Shown one piece after another: positions 21,623-43,317 of a stretch of 64,000 bases of DNA. The notes under the pieces were generated by a model that worked only from the letters and a program-made list of their open reading frames with translations, was not told the DNA's origin and ran no database searches. Each line of letters starts with the position of its first letter. Positions within the stretch are counted from its first letter, which is position 1. Origin of the DNA: an uncultured Chloroflexia bacterium (GTDB taxonomy: Bacteria; Chloroflexota; Anaerolineae; CG2-30-64-16); the NCBI GenBank assembly GCA_963810095.1, contig CAWEMM010000008.1, positions 96,001 to 160,000 on the forward strand. Reading direction: 5' to 3'. The translations under genes and the position numbers were made by a program.

Positions 21623-21721
21623 AAGGGGATGAGGCTCCCCGGGGTTATAGACCCAGAACGTCGCAAGACTGATAGCCTCTACCAGCGGTGCTGTCTTCTG
21701 ACTGGTAGAGGCTATTTCTTT
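21623..21721 (+). ncRNA. Fluoride (crcB) riboswitch 1 with intrinsic terminator
   Basis: GGGGATGAGGCTCCCC P1, GTC-GCAA-GAC P2, TGATAGCCTCTAC pseudoknot strand; terminator AGCCTCTACCAG...CTGGTAGAGGCT plus T tract; leads eno/ppa/crcB. Confidence 0.92.
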
Positions 21722-21749
21722 GTCTCACATCACACCCAGGAGGTATCAC

Positions 21750-23033
21750 GTGTCTGTTGCAATCACTGACGTCAAGGCTCGGGAAATCCTCGACTCGCGC
21801 GGCAATCCGACGGTCGAGGTCGATGTGTGGCTGGAGGACGGCAGCTTCGGCCGCGCCGGCGTGCCCTCGGGCGCGTCGACCGGCGTGCACGAGGCGCTGG
21901 AACTGCGCGACGGCGACAAGGCGCGCTTCGGCGGCAAGGGCGTCCGGCACGCAGTGGCGAACGTCAACGAGCAGATCGCGCCCGCACTGGTCGATATGGA
22001 CGCGCTCGATCAGACGGCCGTCGACGAGGCGATGCTAGCCCTCGATGGCACGCCAAACAAGAGCAAGCTCGGGGCCAACGCGATCCTGGGCGTGAGCCTG
22101 GCGGTGGCGCGAGCGGCGGCGGACTCGCTGGGCGTCCCGCTGTACCGCTACCTTGGCGGCGTCGGCGCACGCCTCCTGCCCGTGCCCATGATGAACATCA
22201 TGAACGGCGGCGCACACGCAAACTGGCAGGGCACGGATCTCCAGGAGTTTATGATCGCACCGGTCGGCGCGCCCACGTTCAGCGAGGCGGTGCGCTGGGG
22301 CTCGGAGACCTACCAGGCGCTCAAGGGCGTGCTCAAGAGCAAGGGCTACCCGACCGGCGTGGGCGATGAAGGCGGGTTTGCGCCCACACTGAAGACGAAT
22401 GCGGAGGCGGTGGAGCTGATCCTCAGCGCGATCGAAAAGGCCGGCTACCGGCCGGGCGACGACATCTGCCTGGCGCTGGACCCGGCGTCGAGCGGCTTCT
22501 ACGAAGACGGGGTCTACAACCTGCGCACGGAAGGCCGCAAGATCAGCTCAGCCGAGATGGTCGCGATGTATGACGAGTGGACGCGCAAGTATCCGATCGT
22601 CGTGCTGGAAGACGGCTTGGCCGAGGACGACTGGGACGGCTGGAAGCTGTTGAACAAGACCATCGGCGACCGGGTCGAGCTGGTGGGCGACGACCTGTTC
22701 GTGACCAACGTCGAGCGTATCGCGCAGGGCATGCGGGAGAACGCGGCGAATGCGGTCTTGATCAAGCTGAATCAGATCGGCAGCCTGACCGAGACGATTG
22801 CGGCGATCCAAATGGCGCACAAGGCCGGCTGGGGCGCCATGGTGTCGCATCGCAGCGGCGAGACGGTCGATAGCTTCATCGCTGACCTTACGGTGGCCAT
22901 GGGCACCGGGCACCTGAAGACCGGCGCGCCGTGCCGGTCGGAGCGGGTTGAGAAGTATAACCAGCTCATGCGTATCGAGGAAGATCTCGACGAGGGCGCC
23001 CGGTATGCCGGGCGCAAGGCCTTTGTGCGGTAG
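21750..23033 (+). CDS. eno: Enolase
   Basis: [40 protein letters not shown]. Confidence 0.97.
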
Positions 23034-23039
23034 GTGCCC

Positions 23040-23660
23040 ATGACGCGCTTCGTCCTGGTTCGGCACGGTCAGACGGAGTGGAACCGGGTCGAACGGTTCC
23101 GCGGACGGGCCGATGTGCCGTTGAACGACGCCGGGCTGGCGCAGGCGGAGGCGACCGGGCGGCGGGTGGCCGAGGAATGGCAGCCCGCCGCCGTGTACGC
23201 CAGTCCGCTTAGCCGGGCATACGTGACGGCGGAAGCGATTAGCGTACGCTGCGGCCTGCCGGTGGCGCCGTTGGCCGGCGTGATCGATATCGATTACGGG
23301 GAGTGGCAGGGACTGACGCCCGAGGAGGTCGCCGCCCGCTGGCCAGACCTGCTGCACGCCTGGTATACCGCGCCGCAGACGGTGCAGGTCCCCGGCGGTG
23401 AGTCGCTGGCGGGACTGCGCGAGCGGGCCATGCGGTCTCTTTGTGAGCTGGTGGACCGGCACCGTGACGAGACAGTCGCGGTCGTGAGCCACACGGTGGT
23501 CAACCGGGTGATCCTGTTGGGCATCCTCGGGCTGGGCAATGAACGGTTTTGGCGGCTGCGGCAGGACAACTGCGCAATCAATGTGTTCGACGCGGACGCC
23601 AGCGATTTCACGCTGGTGACACTAAACGATACCAGCCATCTGCGCTGCGCTGAGAAATGA
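23040..23660 (+). CDS. Histidine phosphatase / phosphoglycerate-mutase family
   Basis: LVRHGQTEWN, SPLSRA, GGES, VVSH. Confidence 0.9.
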   Translation: MTRFVLVRHGQTEWNRVERFRGRADVPLNDAGLAQAEATGRRVAEEWQPAAVYASPLSRAYVTAEAISVRCGLPVAPLAGVIDIDYGEWQGLTPEEVAARWPDLLHAWYTAPQTVQVPGGESLAGLRERAMRSLCELVDRHRDETVAVVSHTVVNRVILLGILGLGNERFWRLRQDNCAINVFDADASDFTLVTLNDTSHLRCAEK

Positions 23661-23682
23661 GCCGCCGCGCACCTGGAACGAG

Positions 23683-24234
23683 GTGACCGTGAATAACTTA
23701 TGGCTTGAGCTGCGCATGGGGCCGAAAGCGCCTGATATCGTATATGCCATCGTCGAGTCGCCCAAGGGCCAGCGGAACAAGACGGAGTATAACATCAACA
23801 GTGGTGCGCTCGTGTTGAGCCGCACGCTCGCCTCGTCGCTGCACTACCCGGGCGACTATGGGCTCATCCCGCAGACCTTCTTCGAAGATGGTGAGCCCAT
23901 GGACATCCTGACCATGACCGGCGAGCCGACTTTCCCCGGCTGCGTCATCCAGGCGCGCCCCGTGGGCATTCTGCGACTGATGGACGCCGGCCATCACGAC
24001 GACAAGGTGCTGGCGGTGGCTGCCACGGACCCACTCTTCGCCGAGTACCAGGCGCTGAAGGACATCCCCCCTCACTTCCTGCGCGAGGTGCAGCACTTCT
24101 TCGAGACGTACAAAGACCTGGAGGGCGGCAAGCGCGCGCAGGCGATGGGGTGGGAGGACGCGGCGGCGGCCAAGGAGGCCATCCTGCGCGCCCACCAGGT
24201 GTTCTTGGAGCGTTTCAGTCTGAAGGGCCTGTAG
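23683..24234 (+). CDS. ppa: Family I soluble inorganic pyrophosphatase (DGEPMD variant)
   Basis: VESPKG, K.E, YPGDYG, DGEPMD, DDK, FFETYK. Confidence 0.92.
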   Translation: MTVNNLWLELRMGPKAPDIVYAIVESPKGQRNKTEYNINSGALVLSRTLASSLHYPGDYGLIPQTFFEDGEPMDILTMTGEPTFPGCVIQARPVGILRLMDAGHHDDKVLAVAATDPLFAEYQALKDIPPHFLREVQHFFETYKDLEGGKRAQAMGWEDAAAAKEAILRAHQVFLERFSLKGL

Positions 24235-24322
24235 GACAGCGGCATCGTAGGGCGCCTGAGAGACGAGCCTATGAGCCGCGAGCGCCTGGTGTGGAGGCGT
24301 GCAGCAATGCAGAGGGGAGTGC

Positions 24323-41288: not shown

Positions 41289-41302
41289 GGGACTAATCGA
41301 AT

Positions 41303-41399
41303 AAGGGATGAGGCTCCCGGCCGGCGCATCGCGCACGGCCTGTCGCAGGACTGATAGCCTCTACCGGCGCGTTGCCGCGTTGGTAGAGGCTTTTTTGTT
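41303..41399 (+). ncRNA. Fluoride riboswitch 3 with terminator
   Basis: GGGATGAGGCTCCC...GTCGCAGGAC-TGATAGCCTCTAC...GGTAGAGGCTTTTTTGTT. Confidence 0.9.
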
Positions 41400-41416
41400 A
41401 CGGTGTGGAGGTCAGT

Positions 41417-42425
41417 ATGACGGCCCTGGATCGATTCGCAGATGAAGTAAAAGACATGGCGAGTCTCGCAGAACCCGTGCAAATCGCCATCGAAAAGGAG
41501 TTATTGCCCGGGGAGGTCGTGCGCCGGATCATCTACGCGCCGCCTCATGAGGGGGCGGCCCGCAGGCGCAGGGTGGGCGGGTGGCTTTCCTGGCGACCTT
41601 CCCCGGCGTGGGTCCTGGTGTTGAGTGACACCCGGCTGCTGCTAGCGACGATCGAAGCGGACGAGCCTGTCCCGACGGTAAGCGCGGCCCCCGTGGCCGA
41701 CATGCTTCGGATCGAGCTCGGCGAGATCCTCTTATACGCCTGGTTGGAATGGTCGTGGGCCGCTGACGGCGAGCTACGACAGGAGCGGGTCTATTTCAAC
41801 TCGGTGCGCGCAGATCTGTTCTCGAAGGTGGTGGAAACGGTTCGCGCGGATATCGTCGCGCAATCTGGTCTGCCGCTGGCGGGCCAGGAGCGCGACCTGG
41901 CCTCGTTCAAGAGTCTACCATTCAAGTTCGCGAACATCATTCCGCACTTTCTGCTCTTCCGCGGCGAGTATGCAGAAAGCGTCGTCTTTCAGCCGGCGAT
42001 CTGGGGGCGGCACCTGGGCCTTCTGCCCGTACAAGCGCGCGCCAGTAACCGTTGCTGTCTTGACGCCTCACTACCTGCTGTTCGTACAAGATGATCTGTC
42101 TCACCAGAAGGCAGCCTACGGAGTGATCGCCAGCTACTGTCCTCGCAATCGGGTGACAGCTCTCGAGCTCGATCGCAAGGAGAACGACGTAGTGCTGAAT
42201 GCGACGCTTCGGTGGCAAGAGGCCGAAGAGAAGCTGAGCTACCTCTTTGAAGCAGAGGCAGAGCCGAGGCTGCGGGCGTTGATTGCCACGCTGGAGGGAT
42301 CGACGAGCGTGGTGAAGATGGCTGGTCCCGATGCGGGCGAGGAATCGAGCAACGGCAGAGCGGAGACGAACGCCGGGGAAGATGGCGCCGAGATCGAACG
42401 AAGAGGCCTTGGGAGGCCGCAATAG
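41417..42425 (+). CDS. Hypothetical protein (frameshift near 42030)
   Basis: GGAGG RBS directly after riboswitch 3; ORFs 41405 and 41970 join. Confidence 0.65.
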
Positions 42426-42481
42426 GAATCGCTGCCAGCTTCGTGCCAGCCCGACTGACTCGCTTTGGGTATGGAAGTGAG

Positions 42482-42800
42482 ATGCTGATGGGGTTGATCA
42501 TTGGTTTAGGAGGGCTGCTCCTCTCCATGTTCATGCTGAACGACCTGGTCTCCCAAGTGACGGACGCGGCATGGAACGCGGCAGAAGTGGCGGGCGAACA
42601 TGCGCCGGCTCCTGCGCGCGCCCCTGTTGTGGCTCTTTCTGGCGGGCTGTGCCGTCACCGTCCTGTCGGGGACGCGTGCAGGAGCGTTGTCAGCTGAGGA
42701 GGGCCGGAGCTTCTTCGCCGTATCGCTCACTTGGTGCTGCGTCATCATGGTCGCCGTGCGCTGGGTCCGCGCCCGTGCGGACCGCAGCGATGACGGATGA
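42482..42800 (+). CDS. Hypothetical small membrane protein (frameshifted)
   Basis: Hydrophobic segments in ORFs 42443 and 42600. Confidence 0.4.
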
Positions 42801-42861
42801 CGTGCAGTGTGTGACTAATGCAACTAAAATGTGAGGCAGTGCAGCGCACAAGGAGTCAAAG

Positions 42862-43317
42862 ATGATTACCCCGCGAGTGCTTTTCGTGTGTACGACGAAT
42901 TCGGTGCGCAGCCAGATGGCCGAGGCGCTCTTGCGCAAGCATGCCGCTGGCAGGTTTGAGGCCTACAGTGCGGGCATCGAGCCGGGCAAGGTGAACCCCC
43001 TGACCGTGCGCGTGCTCAACGAGGTGGGCATCGATCCGTCGCTACAGTGGGCGAAACCCGTCGAGCTCTTTCGCGGCAAGATGCATGTCGACTACGTGAT
43101 CACCTTGTGCAACAAGGCGGAACAACGCTGCCCTACTTTTCCGGCTGCGACCAGCCGGCACCACTGGTCTTTCGACGATCCGGCTGCGGGCGGCGGTTCG
43201 GAGGATGAGAAGCTAGCACGGTTTCGCAAGGTGCGCGACGAGATTGAAAAACAGATCCTGACCTGGATCGCCGAACTGAACGCGGAGCGAAATGGCGCCA
43301 CGCTCAAGGCCAGCTGA
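42862..43317 (+). CDS. arsC: LMWP-family arsenate reductase / phosphatase
   Basis: CTTNSVRSQMAE, LCNKAEQRCP, FDDP. Confidence 0.85.
   Translation: MITPRVLFVCTTNSVRSQMAEALLRKHAAGRFEAYSAGIEPGKVNPLTVRVLNEVGIDPSLQWAKPVELFRGKMHVDYVITLCNKAEQRCPTFPAATSRHHWSFDDPAAGGGSEDEKLARFRKVRDEIEKQILTWIAELNAERNGATLKAS

What the first reader, a model, noticed from the sequence alone, without database searches (positions are those of the whole stretch)
21623..43317. Fluoride-response island with four fluoride riboswitches, much of the cargo uncharacterised
Seen: four near-identical aptamers (GATGAGGCT...(A/G)GCCTCTAC) at about 21625(+), 27747(+), 41213(-) and 41305(+). In each, the pseudoknot strand overlaps an intrinsic terminator, so ligand binding should switch transcription on. 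Known: crcB-class riboswitches sense F- and commonly lead crcB/eriC, enolase and similar genes. Inference: this is a coordinated multi-operon F- defence regulon that goes beyond export. It includes backup copies of F-sensitive enzymes, a MutS-like/P-type ATPase module, a MoxR chaperone module and orphan genes. Four copies in about 20 kb is unusual.
Basis: partly seen in the sequence, partly recalled or inferred. Interest (0 to 1): 0.88.

Follow-up and report, generated by a model that had tools for sequence, protein, structure and literature searches.

The report
Four-riboswitch fluoride regulon in Anaerolineae
Four fluoride-sensing RNA switches within 20 kb of an uncultured Anaerolineae genome control a fluoride exporter, spare copies of fluoride-sensitive enzymes and several protein families of unknown function that recur behind the same switch in many related bacteria, pointing to unexplored parts of the fluoride stress response.

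Summary
Four crcB-motif (fluoride) aptamers lie at 21620-21685(+), 27741-27808(+), 41162-41219(-) and 41299-41367(+). In each, the 3' pseudoknot strand forms the 5' arm of a 13-16 bp terminator, so they should be fluoride ON switches. None reaches Rfam's gathering score of 34 bits (30.6, 26.7, 9.3, no hit). Three carry an extra hairpin between P1 and P2. That hairpin is supported by covariation and is the majority form in the class (38 of 65 aptamers).

The cargo is conserved. MoxR-DUF58-DUF4129 follows this riboswitch in 9 genomes of 5 families, and those MoxRs form their own clade. DUF6062, a MutS-like A/B pair and a Zn-ribbon-HEAT protein follow more riboswitches than crcB does. The island's enolase, pyrophosphatase and crcB are second copies.

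Short-read contigs of close relatives show 1-nt indels at those sites. The P-type gene is a head-only form with about 3 TM helices. Four copies is high but not unique (4 of 151 genomes have 4 or more).

The riboswitch class is known. The new parts are the architecture variant and the uncharacterised cargo. Nothing was tested experimentally.

The parts
21620..21685 (+). e1: fluoride aptamer with a 5-bp extra hairpin; linker AGAAC retained
   Evidence: RF01734 26.7 bits; R1 72.3 bits; fold
21671..21723 (+). e1 terminator hairpin plus U-rich tail; its 5' arm includes the pseudoknot 3' strand AGCCUC
   Evidence: MFE fold, z -4.35
21750..23033 (+). enolase (second copy in the genome)
   Evidence: Pfam Enolase_C 1.9e-122; other copy on C2
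23034..23660 (+). His_Phos_1 (phosphoglycerate-mutase-like)
   Evidence: Pfam 1.2e-61
23683..24234 (+). inorganic pyrophosphatase (second copy)
   Evidence: Pfam 2.3e-50; other copy on C11
24299..24697 (+). crcB/Fluc fluoride channel (second copy)
   Evidence: PF02537 98.6 bits at window 24335-24676
24750..25118 (+). DUF190
   Evidence: Pfam 3.1e-35; collinear with G016
25063..26019 (+). 4xCBS protein (C-terminal frame break possible)
   Evidence: Pfam CBS 3.4e-49; frames
26028..26471 (+). unk147, recurrent cargo with no family
   Evidence: no Pfam or NCBIfam family; behind 5 of 65 class riboswitches
26464..27144 (+). DUF6062 (two CxxC pairs)
   Evidence: Pfam 7.4e-9; commonest cargo, 21 of 65 riboswitches
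27210..27644 (+). single-domain EamA membrane protein (not recurrent)
   Evidence: Pfam 1.9e-23; no hit in related loci
27741..27808 (+). e2: aptamer with a 9-bp extra hairpin that replaces the whole P1-P2 linker
   Evidence: RF01734 only 9.3 bits; R1 62.5 bits; fold
27797..27842 (+). e2 terminator, 15 bp plus TTTTTGTTGT
27849..29099 (+). MFS transporter
   Evidence: Pfam MFS_1 4.7e-38; behind 8 of 65 class riboswitches
29201..30725 (+). MutS-like A (N-terminal domain plus MutS_V ATPase); frame break near 30237
   Evidence: collinear with the intact G016 511-aa ORF in frames 2>3; 1-nt indel in relatives' contigs
30732..32231 (+). MutS-like B (MutS_V ATPase; no mismatch-binding domain)
32280..33959 (+). 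head-only P-type ATPase (TGE, DKTG, MLTGD, GDGAND; about 3 TM); 4 frame changes in the window
   Evidence: frames 3>1>2>1>3 against the G016 ORF; motifs and TM helices; indels at 32610 and 33516
33998..36632 (-). modC-modB-modA-like ABC transporter (frame-split); membership of the regulon uncertain
   Evidence: NCBIfam modA 2.1e-57; frames; ModA behind a riboswitch in G002 and at the operon end in G047
37465..38892 (-). DUF4129 membrane protein (2 frame breaks)
   Evidence: collinear with the G013 484-aa protein; Pfam DUF4129 6.8e-13 on G013
38873..40105 (-). DUF58
   Evidence: Pfam 1.3e-9
40102..41079 (-). MoxR AAA+ ATPase of the riboswitch-linked clade
   Evidence: Pfam AAA_3 8.6e-64; tree
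41144..41173 (-). e3 terminator, 13 bp plus TTTTGTTTG
41162..41219 (-). e3: canonical-form fluoride aptamer (linker UCAACC, no extra hairpin)
   Evidence: RF01734 30.6 bits, E 8.2e-7; R1 54.2 bits
41238..41288 (.). back-to-back promoter-like sites with overlapping -35 hexamers
   Evidence: + TTGTCA-17-TATAAT and - TTGACA-17-TAGAAT, both 11 of 12
41299..41367 (+). e4: aptamer with a roughly 9-bp extra hairpin and no AAC linker
   Evidence: no RF01734 hit at E<=10; R1 60.2 bits; fold
41356..41401 (+). e4 terminator, 16 bp plus TTTTTGTTAC
41417..42425 (+). orphan-1: roughly 300-aa soluble protein with no Pfam family, frame-broken near 42030
   Evidence: one ORF in G013 (301 aa) and G045 (314 aa); Atlas and profile searches
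42862..43317 (+). LMW phosphatase (arsenate-reductase-like); not recurrent, membership doubtful
   Evidence: Pfam LMWPc 2.6e-20; no hit in related loci

Best explanation
The region holds four transcriptional ON riboswitches of the fluoride (crcB-motif) class. Each aptamer has P1 (GGG/CCC closing the loop AUGAGGCU), a P2 hairpin (GUC-GCAA-GAC in e1, e2 and e4), and a 6-bp pseudoknot between the P1 loop (GAGGCU) and the 3' tail (AGCCUC).

Inferred mechanism, by analogy with characterised members of the class: without fluoride, the 3' tail pairs into a 13-16 bp intrinsic terminator. When the Mg2+-F- cluster locks the pseudoknot, the terminator cannot form and RNA polymerase reads on.

Three of the four aptamers carry an extra, variable hairpin between P1 and P2. 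This is a peripheral stem typical of Anaerolineae and does not change the ligand-binding core.

The switches head four units:
(1) enolase, a phosphoglycerate-mutase-like protein, pyrophosphatase, crcB, DUF190, CBS, unk147, DUF6062.
(2) MFS, MutS-like A, MutS-like B, and a head-only P-type ATPase.
(3) MoxR, DUF58, DUF4129.
(4) An orphan protein of about 300 aa, divergent from unit 3 and driven from back-to-back promoters.

Functionally (inferred), the regulon exports F-, supplies extra copies of enzymes that F- or Mg-F-phosphate complexes inhibit, and deploys ATPase-based modules and small proteins that probably protect or reactivate phosphoryl-transfer and Mg2+-dependent proteins.
For: Aptamers:
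- RF01734 matches e3 at 30.6 bits and e1 at 26.7 bits over the full model.
- All four share the invariant core.
- P1, P2 and the pseudoknot are 94.2% paired on 22 lineage sequences, with the pseudoknot at 100%, against at most 56% when slid.
- RNAalifold on its own recovers the pseudoknot helix in 24 of 24 sequences.

Expression platform:
- In the class, 61 of 65 aptamers are followed by an arm complementary to their 3' tail plus a T-run.

Extra hairpin:
- Its central pairs are kept in 18-24 of 24 sequences, with both-side changes in up to 10.
- It is 13 nt in e1 and 28 nt in the same-genus orthologue, with an identical core.
- 38 of 65 class aptamers have it.
- The same cargo families follow both forms, for example crcB 5 with the insert and 3 plain.

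Context:
- crcB, enolase, PPase, DUF190, CBS and MutS-like genes are classic associations (Weinberg 2010, PMC2864571, crcB section read via find; review PMC11139923, passages read).
- MoxR-DUF58(-DUF4129) lies directly downstream of the riboswitch in G013, G020 and G041 and in G464, G466, G484, G503 and G525.
- Two of those aptamers pass Rfam's gathering score: G466 at 37.0 bits and G503 at 35.2 bits.
- The 8 riboswitch-linked MoxRs in the tree sit on one side of a branch among 22 paralogues, support 96/98.
- Second copies of enolase, PPase and crcB exist elsewhere in the genome.
- Promoter-like sites lie 8-10 nt upstream of e3 and e4.
Against: - No element reaches Rfam's gathering score. e2 and e4 are essentially undetectable with RF01734.
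- e2 and e4 lack the AAC(C) of the canonical P1-P2 linker, so whether they still bind F- is not shown.
- R1 scores for the four are circular, because they are in its training set.
- There is no expression or ligand-binding evidence. No RNA run holds the region.
- No sigma-70-like promoter was found directly upstream of e1.
- Cargo was recognised only by tblastn with the window's and relatives' own proteins, so other cargo is invisible. 12 of 65 riboswitches had no recognised downstream gene.
- All comparisons are within one class, and related genomes are not independent.
- The orphan has a riboswitch directly upstream in only 5 of 25 extra loci.
- The functional roles of MoxR, the MutS-like pair, the P-type head, DUF6062 and the orphan are inference only.
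Confidence: 0.85

Rival explanations
1. The insert-bearing elements (e1, e2, e4) are specificity variants or decayed relics of fluoride riboswitches. On this reading only e3 senses fluoride, and the others sense another ligand or act as constitutive terminators.
For: e2 scores 9.3 bits and e4 gets no RF01734 hit. Both lack the conserved AAC(C) linker. Rare variants of other riboswitch classes are known to change ligand (FMN variants, PMC6298564, seen in a search listing only).
Against: The nucleotides of P1, its loop, P2, CUGAU and the pseudoknot tail are identical to those of e3 and of Rfam-passing relatives. The insert varies in length while the core does not. Both forms precede the same gene families, including crcB itself. 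e1 with its insert still scores 26.7 bits. Orthologous e2-type aptamers are kept upstream of MFS in G024.
Confidence: 0.07
2. The riboswitches are real, but the uncharacterised cargo (MoxR-DUF58-DUF4129, orphan-1, DUF6062, the MutS-like pair, the P-type head) is linked to them only by inherited synteny within one lineage and has no role in fluoride physiology.
For: All evidence is comparative and comes from one class, and related genomes share gene order. The orphan is often operon-internal or has no detectable riboswitch (18 of 25 loci). LMWPc and EamA do not recur. No function is known for any of these families.
Against: Gene order around the switches is heavily shuffled between genomes, yet the same families stay immediately downstream of an aptamer. 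Examples are the P-type head first in G016, DUF6062 before MoxR in G466 and G503, and MutS pairs alone in G058, G507 and G514. Each genome has 3-5 MoxR paralogues, but only the one clade is riboswitch-linked. mutS-like genes were already noted as crcB-motif cargo across phyla (PMC2864571).
Confidence: 0.12
3. The four elements are copies of a repeated terminator-containing sequence, such as a REP-like or mobile repeat, and not ligand sensors.
For: They share an identical 9-mer and 14-mer and a similar terminator. All four lie within 20 kb and nowhere else in the genome.
Against: There is a full-length match to the fluoride covariance model. Helices co-vary across families. The position is always in a 5' leader, co-directional with the downstream gene. 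They are found in 50 of 151 genomes of the class with the same cargo. The region's GC is uniform and it has no tRNA.
Confidence: 0.02

Closest known systems
Fluoride riboswitch / crcB motif (Rfam RF01734; Weinberg 2010, Baker 2012)
   Same: Same P1 with the GAUG-containing 8-nt loop, the same P2, the same CUGAU...CCUCUAC tail and loop-tail pseudoknot, and a terminator that overlaps the aptamer's 3' side. Same cargo classes (crcB, enolase, pyrophosphatase, mutS-like, CBS).
   Different: All four score below the curated threshold. Three have an extra hairpin inserted after P1, and in e2 and e4 it replaces the AAC(C) linker altogether. The pseudoknot sequence is AGGCU/AGCCU, against the Rfam consensus GGAGU/ACUCC.
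Sub-threshold 'divergent fluoride riboswitch' cluster #418,142 (bioRxiv 10.64898/2026.10.21.760802; passages read)
   Same: A crcB-linked fluoride-like aptamer family that RF01734 does not annotate at its gathering score (maximum 28.9 bits there).
   Different: That cluster is described with a putative Shine-Dalgarno sequence and crcB colocalisation. Its taxonomy and architecture were not visible to me (the figures are not held). e3 here (30.6 bits) exceeds that cluster's maximum. I could not test identity with that cluster.
MoxR-DUF58(-vWA/DUF4129) AAA+ chaperone-like cassettes
   Same: Same three-gene order and domains (AAA_3 plus AAA_lid_2, DUF58, a DUF4129 membrane protein).
   Different: Here one specific MoxR clade is placed under a fluoride riboswitch in 9 genomes of 5 families. 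I found no paper that links MoxR to fluoride riboswitches. Baker 2012 and its supplement could not be read.
P2-type cation ATPases (e.g. Listeria Ca2+-ATPase LMCA1, PDB 9euq)
   Same: A, P and N domains with TGE, DKTG, MLTGD and GDGAND. The match is E 6.3e-58 over residues 113-700 of 880.
   Different: It lacks M1-M2 and M6-M10, has only about 3 hydrophobic helices and has no PEGL/CPC ion-site motif. It is unlikely to transport. It may be what older lists call a riboswitch-associated 'haloacid dehalogenase' (my inference).
MutS / MutS2 family
   Same: MutS domain V ABC-type ATPase and part of the lever region. mutS-like genes are a long-known crcB-motif association.
   Different: Two paralogues (A about 511 aa, B about 516 aa) always occur as an adjacent, overlapping pair. 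No mismatch-binding domain I and no Smr domain were detected.

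Membership tests
Fluoride riboswitch (RF01734) | Score at or above Rfam's curated gathering threshold (34 bits). This is operational, not structural. | tested here: not met
   0 hits at the gathering score. e3 30.6, e1 26.7, e2 9.3, e4 none. E-values for e3 and e1 are still 3.7e-6 and 6.5e-5 genome-wide.
Fluoride riboswitch (RF01734) | P1 helix closing an 8-nt loop that starts AUG (GAUG motif) | tested here: met
   All four. P1 pairs 95.5-100% kept with compensatory changes.
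Fluoride riboswitch (RF01734) | Pseudoknot between the P1 loop and the 3' tail, followed by (C)UAC | tested here: met
   GAGGCU/AGCCUC in all four. 100% and 99.3% of cells paired on A2 and A5. RNAalifold finds it unaided.
Fluoride riboswitch (RF01734) | P2 hairpin followed by the conserved CUGAU | tested here: met
   GUCGCAAGAC-UGAU in e1 and e2, GUCGCAGGAC-UGAU in e4, GUCGG-ACUG-CCGAC-UGAU in e3.
Fluoride riboswitch (RF01734) | Short single-stranded P1-P2 linker with a conserved AAC(C) | tested here: inconclusive
   Met in e3 (UCAACC) and e1 (AGAAC after the insert). Not met in e2 (GGUU) or e4 (CCU), where a 9-bp hairpin abuts P2.
Fluoride riboswitch (RF01734) | Selective binding of F- through a Mg2+ cluster | not testable with these tools
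   Needs in-line probing, ITC or a transcription assay with NaF.
Fluoride riboswitch (RF01734) | Leader position upstream of fluoride-toxicity genes (crcB/eriC, enolase, ppa, mutS-like) | tested here: met
Transporting P-type ATPase | Catalytic motifs TGE, DKTG, TGD, GDGxND | tested here: met
   Intact G016 orthologue. The same motifs are spread over three frames in the window.
Transporting P-type ATPase | At least 6 TM helices with an M4 ion-binding motif (PEGL/CPC) | tested here: not met
   3 hydrophobic segments and no PEGL. It aligns only to residues 113-700 of LMCA1.
MutS1 mismatch-repair protein | N-terminal mismatch-binding domain I plus connector domain II | tested here: not met
   Only MutS_V is found by Pfam. 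PDB matches start at MutS residue 489 or later.
MoxR AAA+ (AAA_3) cassette | AAA_3 plus AAA_lid_2 ATPase followed by a DUF58 gene | tested here: met
   DUF4129 is the third gene.

The most novel reading that the evidence does not exclude
In Anaerolineae the fluoride riboswitch mainly controls a conserved tool-kit, not the exporter. The tool-kit consists of nucleotide- and phosphate-handling machines: a dedicated MoxR-DUF58-DUF4129 clade, MutS-like A/B ATPase pairs, a transport-less P-type phosphoenzyme 'head', zinc-binding DUF6062, a Zn-ribbon-HEAT protein and a bPH-like orphan. On this reading these act as sinks, sensors or reactivators for proteins trapped by Mg-F/ADP-type transition-state complexes. 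That would be a cellular repair layer of fluoride defence that has not been described. The variable extra hairpin, together with the different terminator strengths of the four switches, would then set staggered fluoride thresholds for the four operons.
Probability: 0.25. Interest if true: 0.78.

Novelty: new variant of a known kind. Interest (0 to 1): 0.55.

Why it matters
Fluoride riboswitches are well known, but most of what they control beyond the exporters is not understood. Four points follow from this locus and its relatives.

(1) A whole bacterial class carries many fluoride riboswitches that standard Rfam annotation misses because of a tolerated inserted hairpin. Of 25 lineage-model hits tested, 18 fall below the gathering score, and so do all four here. 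Fluoride regulons are therefore undercounted.

(2) Several protein families of unknown function are tied to the switch more often than crcB is. These are DUF6062, the MutS-like A/B pair, a Zn-ribbon-HEAT protein, one MoxR-DUF58-DUF4129 clade, a head-only P-type ATPase and an orphan family of about 300 aa with no Pfam model. That makes them concrete candidates for the missing intracellular side of fluoride tolerance.

(3) The inserted hairpin marks a position in the aptamer that tolerates insertions. This is useful for riboswitch engineering and for improving the covariance model.

(4) Fluoride tolerance limits microbial organofluorine degradation (review PMC11139923), so new tolerance genes have practical interest.

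Tried and rejected
- Rfam at gathering threshold on the window gave nothing. It also gave nothing on 20 orphan-1 loci.
- My first two genome regex scans missed the known copies because of greedy or lazy grouping. I replaced them with explicit enumeration.
- Baker et al. 2012 (DOI and PMC4140402) is not held. Its gene list and supplement may already name some of the cargo reported here. Supplements are closed.
- Orphan-1: a phylum-wide sample of 400 genomes found it only in the own genome. Genome contigs gave only 2 loci. There is no Pfam or NCBIfam family and no PDB sequence relative.
- The AlphaFold job on orphan-1 (ticket) had not finished at the last of 16 polls. No model of my own and no fold search was obtained. 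Only the Atlas's own model is cited.
- Sequencing runs: no RNA holder is listed. DNA holders have only 5-7% of the words. Read laying did not show the frame-break sites near 32950, 33466 and 42030 or those in modB and modC.
- The first MoxR tree lost two G000:C6 paralogues to a name collision (20 rows). I redid it with all 22.
- A Pfam call failed because one reference contained stop codons. I repeated it without that reference.
- No riboswitch was found near the second crcB or the orphan paralogue.
- A foreign or mobile island was considered and rejected: GC is uniform and there are no tRNAs.
- Complex prediction for the MutS-like A/B pair was considered and not run. It would probably pass simply by likeness to solved MutS dimers.

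Full report
1. OBSERVATION

The window is contig C8:96001-160000 of a 6.13-Mb, 16-contig genome that is 88.5% complete. The nearest named records are Anaerolineae MAGs.

Reading the sequence and aligning the four shows a shared core: GGG(G)AUGAGGCUC(C/G)C, a GUC-GCAA-GAC-type hairpin, and CUGAU(A/G)GCCUCUAC. A long hairpin and a T-run follow. A pattern scan of the whole genome and a lineage covariance model find these four and no others.

2. ARE THEY FLUORIDE RIBOSWITCHES?

At Rfam's gathering threshold the window has no hit at all. In permissive mode the scores against RF01734 are as follows:
- e3 (41159-41223, minus strand): 30.6 bits over the full model, against a gathering score of 34.
- e1: 26.7 bits, with a 13-nt insertion after P1.
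- e2: 9.3 bits.
- e4: no match at E<=10.

The cause is an extra hairpin between P1 and P2. It has 5 bp in e1 and about 9 bp in e2 and e4, where it replaces the whole AAC(C) linker.

The rest of the aptamer matches the family:
- On 22 sequences of the lineage, P1, P2 and the loop-tail pseudoknot are 94.2% paired, against at most 56% when the partners are slid. The pseudoknot is 100% paired.
- RNAalifold alone recovers the pseudoknot helix in 24 of 24 insert-bearing sequences.

The extra hairpin itself co-varies. Its four central pairs are kept in 24, 18, 18 and 19 of 24 sequences, and both sides change in up to 10 of them. In the same-genus genome G001 the orthologue of e1 has the same core but a 28-nt hairpin instead of 13 nt. 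I read the hairpin as a peripheral, length-variable stem.

3. EXPRESSION PLATFORM

In all four elements the six 3' pseudoknot nucleotides are the start of the 5' arm of a 13-16 bp hairpin followed by a T-run (z-scores -3.05 to -6.38). This is the classic design in which ligand-stabilised pseudoknot formation prevents termination (PMC2864571, crcB section). ON-switching by fluoride is therefore inferred by analogy and not shown.

e3 and e4 are divergent. Each sits 8-10 nt downstream of a promoter-like site matching 11 of 12 consensus positions, and the two -35 hexamers overlap. e2 lies at the end of operon 1 with no other terminator before it, so it may also act as an internal checkpoint. No clear promoter was seen in front of e1.

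4. GENE MODELS AND ASSEMBLY QUALITY

Many ORFs here are broken. Compared with intact orthologues in G016 and G013:
- The P-type gene runs through frames 3>1>2>1>3.
- MutS-like A runs through frames 2>3.
- DUF4129 runs through frames -2>-3>-2.
- The orphan runs through frames 2>3.
- modB and modC are also split.

Short-read contigs of close relatives, up to 99% identical or more, show single-base indels relative to the window at 30237, 30727/30729, 32238, 32610, 33516, 37631 and 38592. These are the sites where the frames change. The breaks are therefore most likely consensus errors of this assembly. Consequences:
- The 942-aa 'MutS/P-type' ORF is an artefact.
- 'unk229' and 'unk151a' are one protein of about 300 aa.
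- 'unk351' and 'unk222' are one DUF4129 protein.

5. CARGO

Unit 1 holds enolase, His_Phos_1, pyrophosphatase, crcB, DUF190, 4xCBS, unk147, DUF6062 and an EamA half-transporter. The enolase, pyrophosphatase and crcB are second copies in the genome.

Unit 2 holds four genes:
- An MFS transporter.
- MutS-like A and MutS-like B. Each has only the MutS_V ATPase plus part of the lever region.
- A 562-aa P-type ATPase 'head'. It has TGE, DKTG, MLTGD and GDGAND, but only about 3 hydrophobic helices and no M4 ion-site motif. It aligns to residues 113-700 of the Listeria Ca2+-ATPase.

Unit 3 is MoxR-DUF58-DUF4129.

Unit 4 starts with an orphan:
- No member of its 22-sequence alignment matches Pfam.
- Its profile finds nothing among PDB sequences.
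- It belongs to a family of 986 representative clusters at E<=1e-3.
- The Atlas's own model (pTM 0.83) resembles tandem bacterial PH-like domains at TM 0.53-0.61. This is a lead only.

The region is not compositionally distinct: GC is 0.61-0.65 throughout and there are no tRNAs.

6. COMPARATIVE TEST

In the family, the lineage model finds riboswitches in 16 of 37 genomes. G016 has up to 4 copies, and G012, G016 and G024 have clusters of 3 within 2-3.5 kb.

In a class sample it finds them in 50 of 151 genomes. G567 has 5, and G000, G461 and G464 have 4 each.

I fetched the downstream 5 kb for 65 of the 67 hits outside the family. The two left out were G544, at a contig edge, and G527, the weakest hit. 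I searched these stretches with the window's and relatives' proteins. Co-directional cargo, as riboswitches / genomes / families:

| Cargo | Riboswitches | Genomes | Families |
|---|---|---|---|
| DUF6062 | 21 | 20 | 13 |
| MutS-like A | 15 | 15 | 13 |
| MutS-like B | 13 | 13 | 12 |
| Zn-ribbon-HEAT | 14 | 14 | 9 |
| MoxR+DUF58 | 5 | 5 | 4 |
| orphan-1 | 3 | 3 | 3 |

Counted by riboswitches only: CBS 9, crcB 8, MFS 8, DUF190 7, enolase 5, unk147 5, PPase 3, His_Phos 2, and none recognised 12.

Adding the family (window, G013, G020, G041), the MoxR cassette is riboswitch-led in 9 genomes of 5 families. Two of those aptamers pass Rfam's gathering score.

Genomes have 3-5 MoxR paralogues. In a tree of 22, the 8 riboswitch-linked ones lie on one side of a branch, with support 96/98 and in 97% of bootstrap trees. 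Three of the eight were added without their paralogues, and related genomes share labels.

For the orphan, 25 further loci were examined:
- 5 show a riboswitch directly upstream.
- 1 shows it one gene further up.
- 1 shows it on the other strand.
- 18 show none. Most of those are operon-internal on short contigs. Enolase, MutS-like A/B, DUF6062, MFS or unk147 was recognised beside the orphan in 9 of the 25 loci.

Across the class, 38 of 65 aptamers have the extra hairpin, 22 do not and 5 could not be parsed. Both forms precede the same families. 61 of 65 have the complementary terminator arm plus a T-run. Of 25 lineage-model hits tested, 7 pass Rfam's gathering score.

7. COMPARISON WITH WHAT IS KNOWN

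The riboswitch class, its ON-terminator logic, and its association with crcB, enolase, pyrophosphatase, 'haloacid dehalogenase', Na+/H+ antiporters, formate hydrogen lyase and mutS are established. Sources read were PMC2864571 (crcB section), PMC11139923 and PMC7266159 (passages).

A 2026 preprint reports another sub-threshold fluoride-like cluster. I could not tell whether it overlaps this lineage.

I found no paper that mentions DUF6062. I found none that links fluoride riboswitches with MoxR, DUF58, P-type ATPases or Anaerolineae. Baker 2012 and all supplements were out of reach and may list some of these.

8. VERDICT

It is a new architectural variant and a gene-rich example of a known riboswitch class, not a new kind of system.

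Its value lies in the conserved, uncharacterised cargo and in showing that standard annotation undercounts these switches. All functional statements about the cargo are inference. No ligand-binding or expression evidence exists.

Noticed in passing
window 29200-38900 and 41400-42430: About 10 single-base frame breaks in otherwise conserved genes (MutS-like A, P-type head x4, DUF4129 x2, orphan-1, modB, modC, possibly the CBS C-terminus). Seven coincide with 1-nt indels in short-read contigs of close relatives, so the assembly probably carries consensus indel errors. This may also explain its 88.5% completeness with only 16 contigs.
   Followed up: yes
window 33998-36632 (-); L081 (G002:C1); L085 (G047:C27): A modABC-like oxyanion ABC transporter lies just downstream of the MoxR operon. 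In G002 a riboswitch-like element leads His_Phos_1 and then ModA. In G047 ModA ends a long riboswitch-led operon. A promoter-like site (11 of 12) at 37270-37242 lies inside the DUF4129 3' end. It is unclear whether ModA belongs to the fluoride regulon.
   Followed up: partly
L130 (G567:C267) 5857-5924 and 5961-6025: Two fluoride aptamers lie about 37 nt apart on the same strand. One was found by R1 and the other only by Rfam (38.0 bits). This may be a tandem arrangement.
   Followed up: no
L060 (G002:C1:519450-519515): The same-genus aptamer has a degenerate 3' strand (CUGAGAACCUC) and no terminator, and lies directly in front of the His_Phos_1 start codon. It may be a decayed or a translational variant.
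   Followed up: no
window 41238-41288: Two promoter-like sites on opposite strands share overlapping -35 hexamers (TTGTCA/TTGACA). The same divergent riboswitch-pair layout recurs in G013, G032, G484 and G525.
   Followed up: partly
L090 11125-11526 and many class loci: A 133-aa zinc-ribbon plus HEAT-repeat protein is among the commonest riboswitch cargo in the class (14 of 65) but is absent from this window.
   Followed up: partly
Atlas neighbours of orphan-1: One structural neighbour cluster in Chloroflexota is a 485-aa pyrophosphatase family in which 12% of members also carry a bPH_3 domain (TM 0.43, weak). This hints at a link between PH-like domains and pyrophosphatase.
   Followed up: no
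window 18688-19116, 19657-21165, 57289-58786; G000:C12:553501-554025: There is a second LMW phosphatase and a double-methyltransferase gene just upstream of the island, and a separate P-type ATPase-like match later in the window. An orphan-1 paralogue (30% identity) elsewhere in the genome has no riboswitch nearby.
   Followed up: partly
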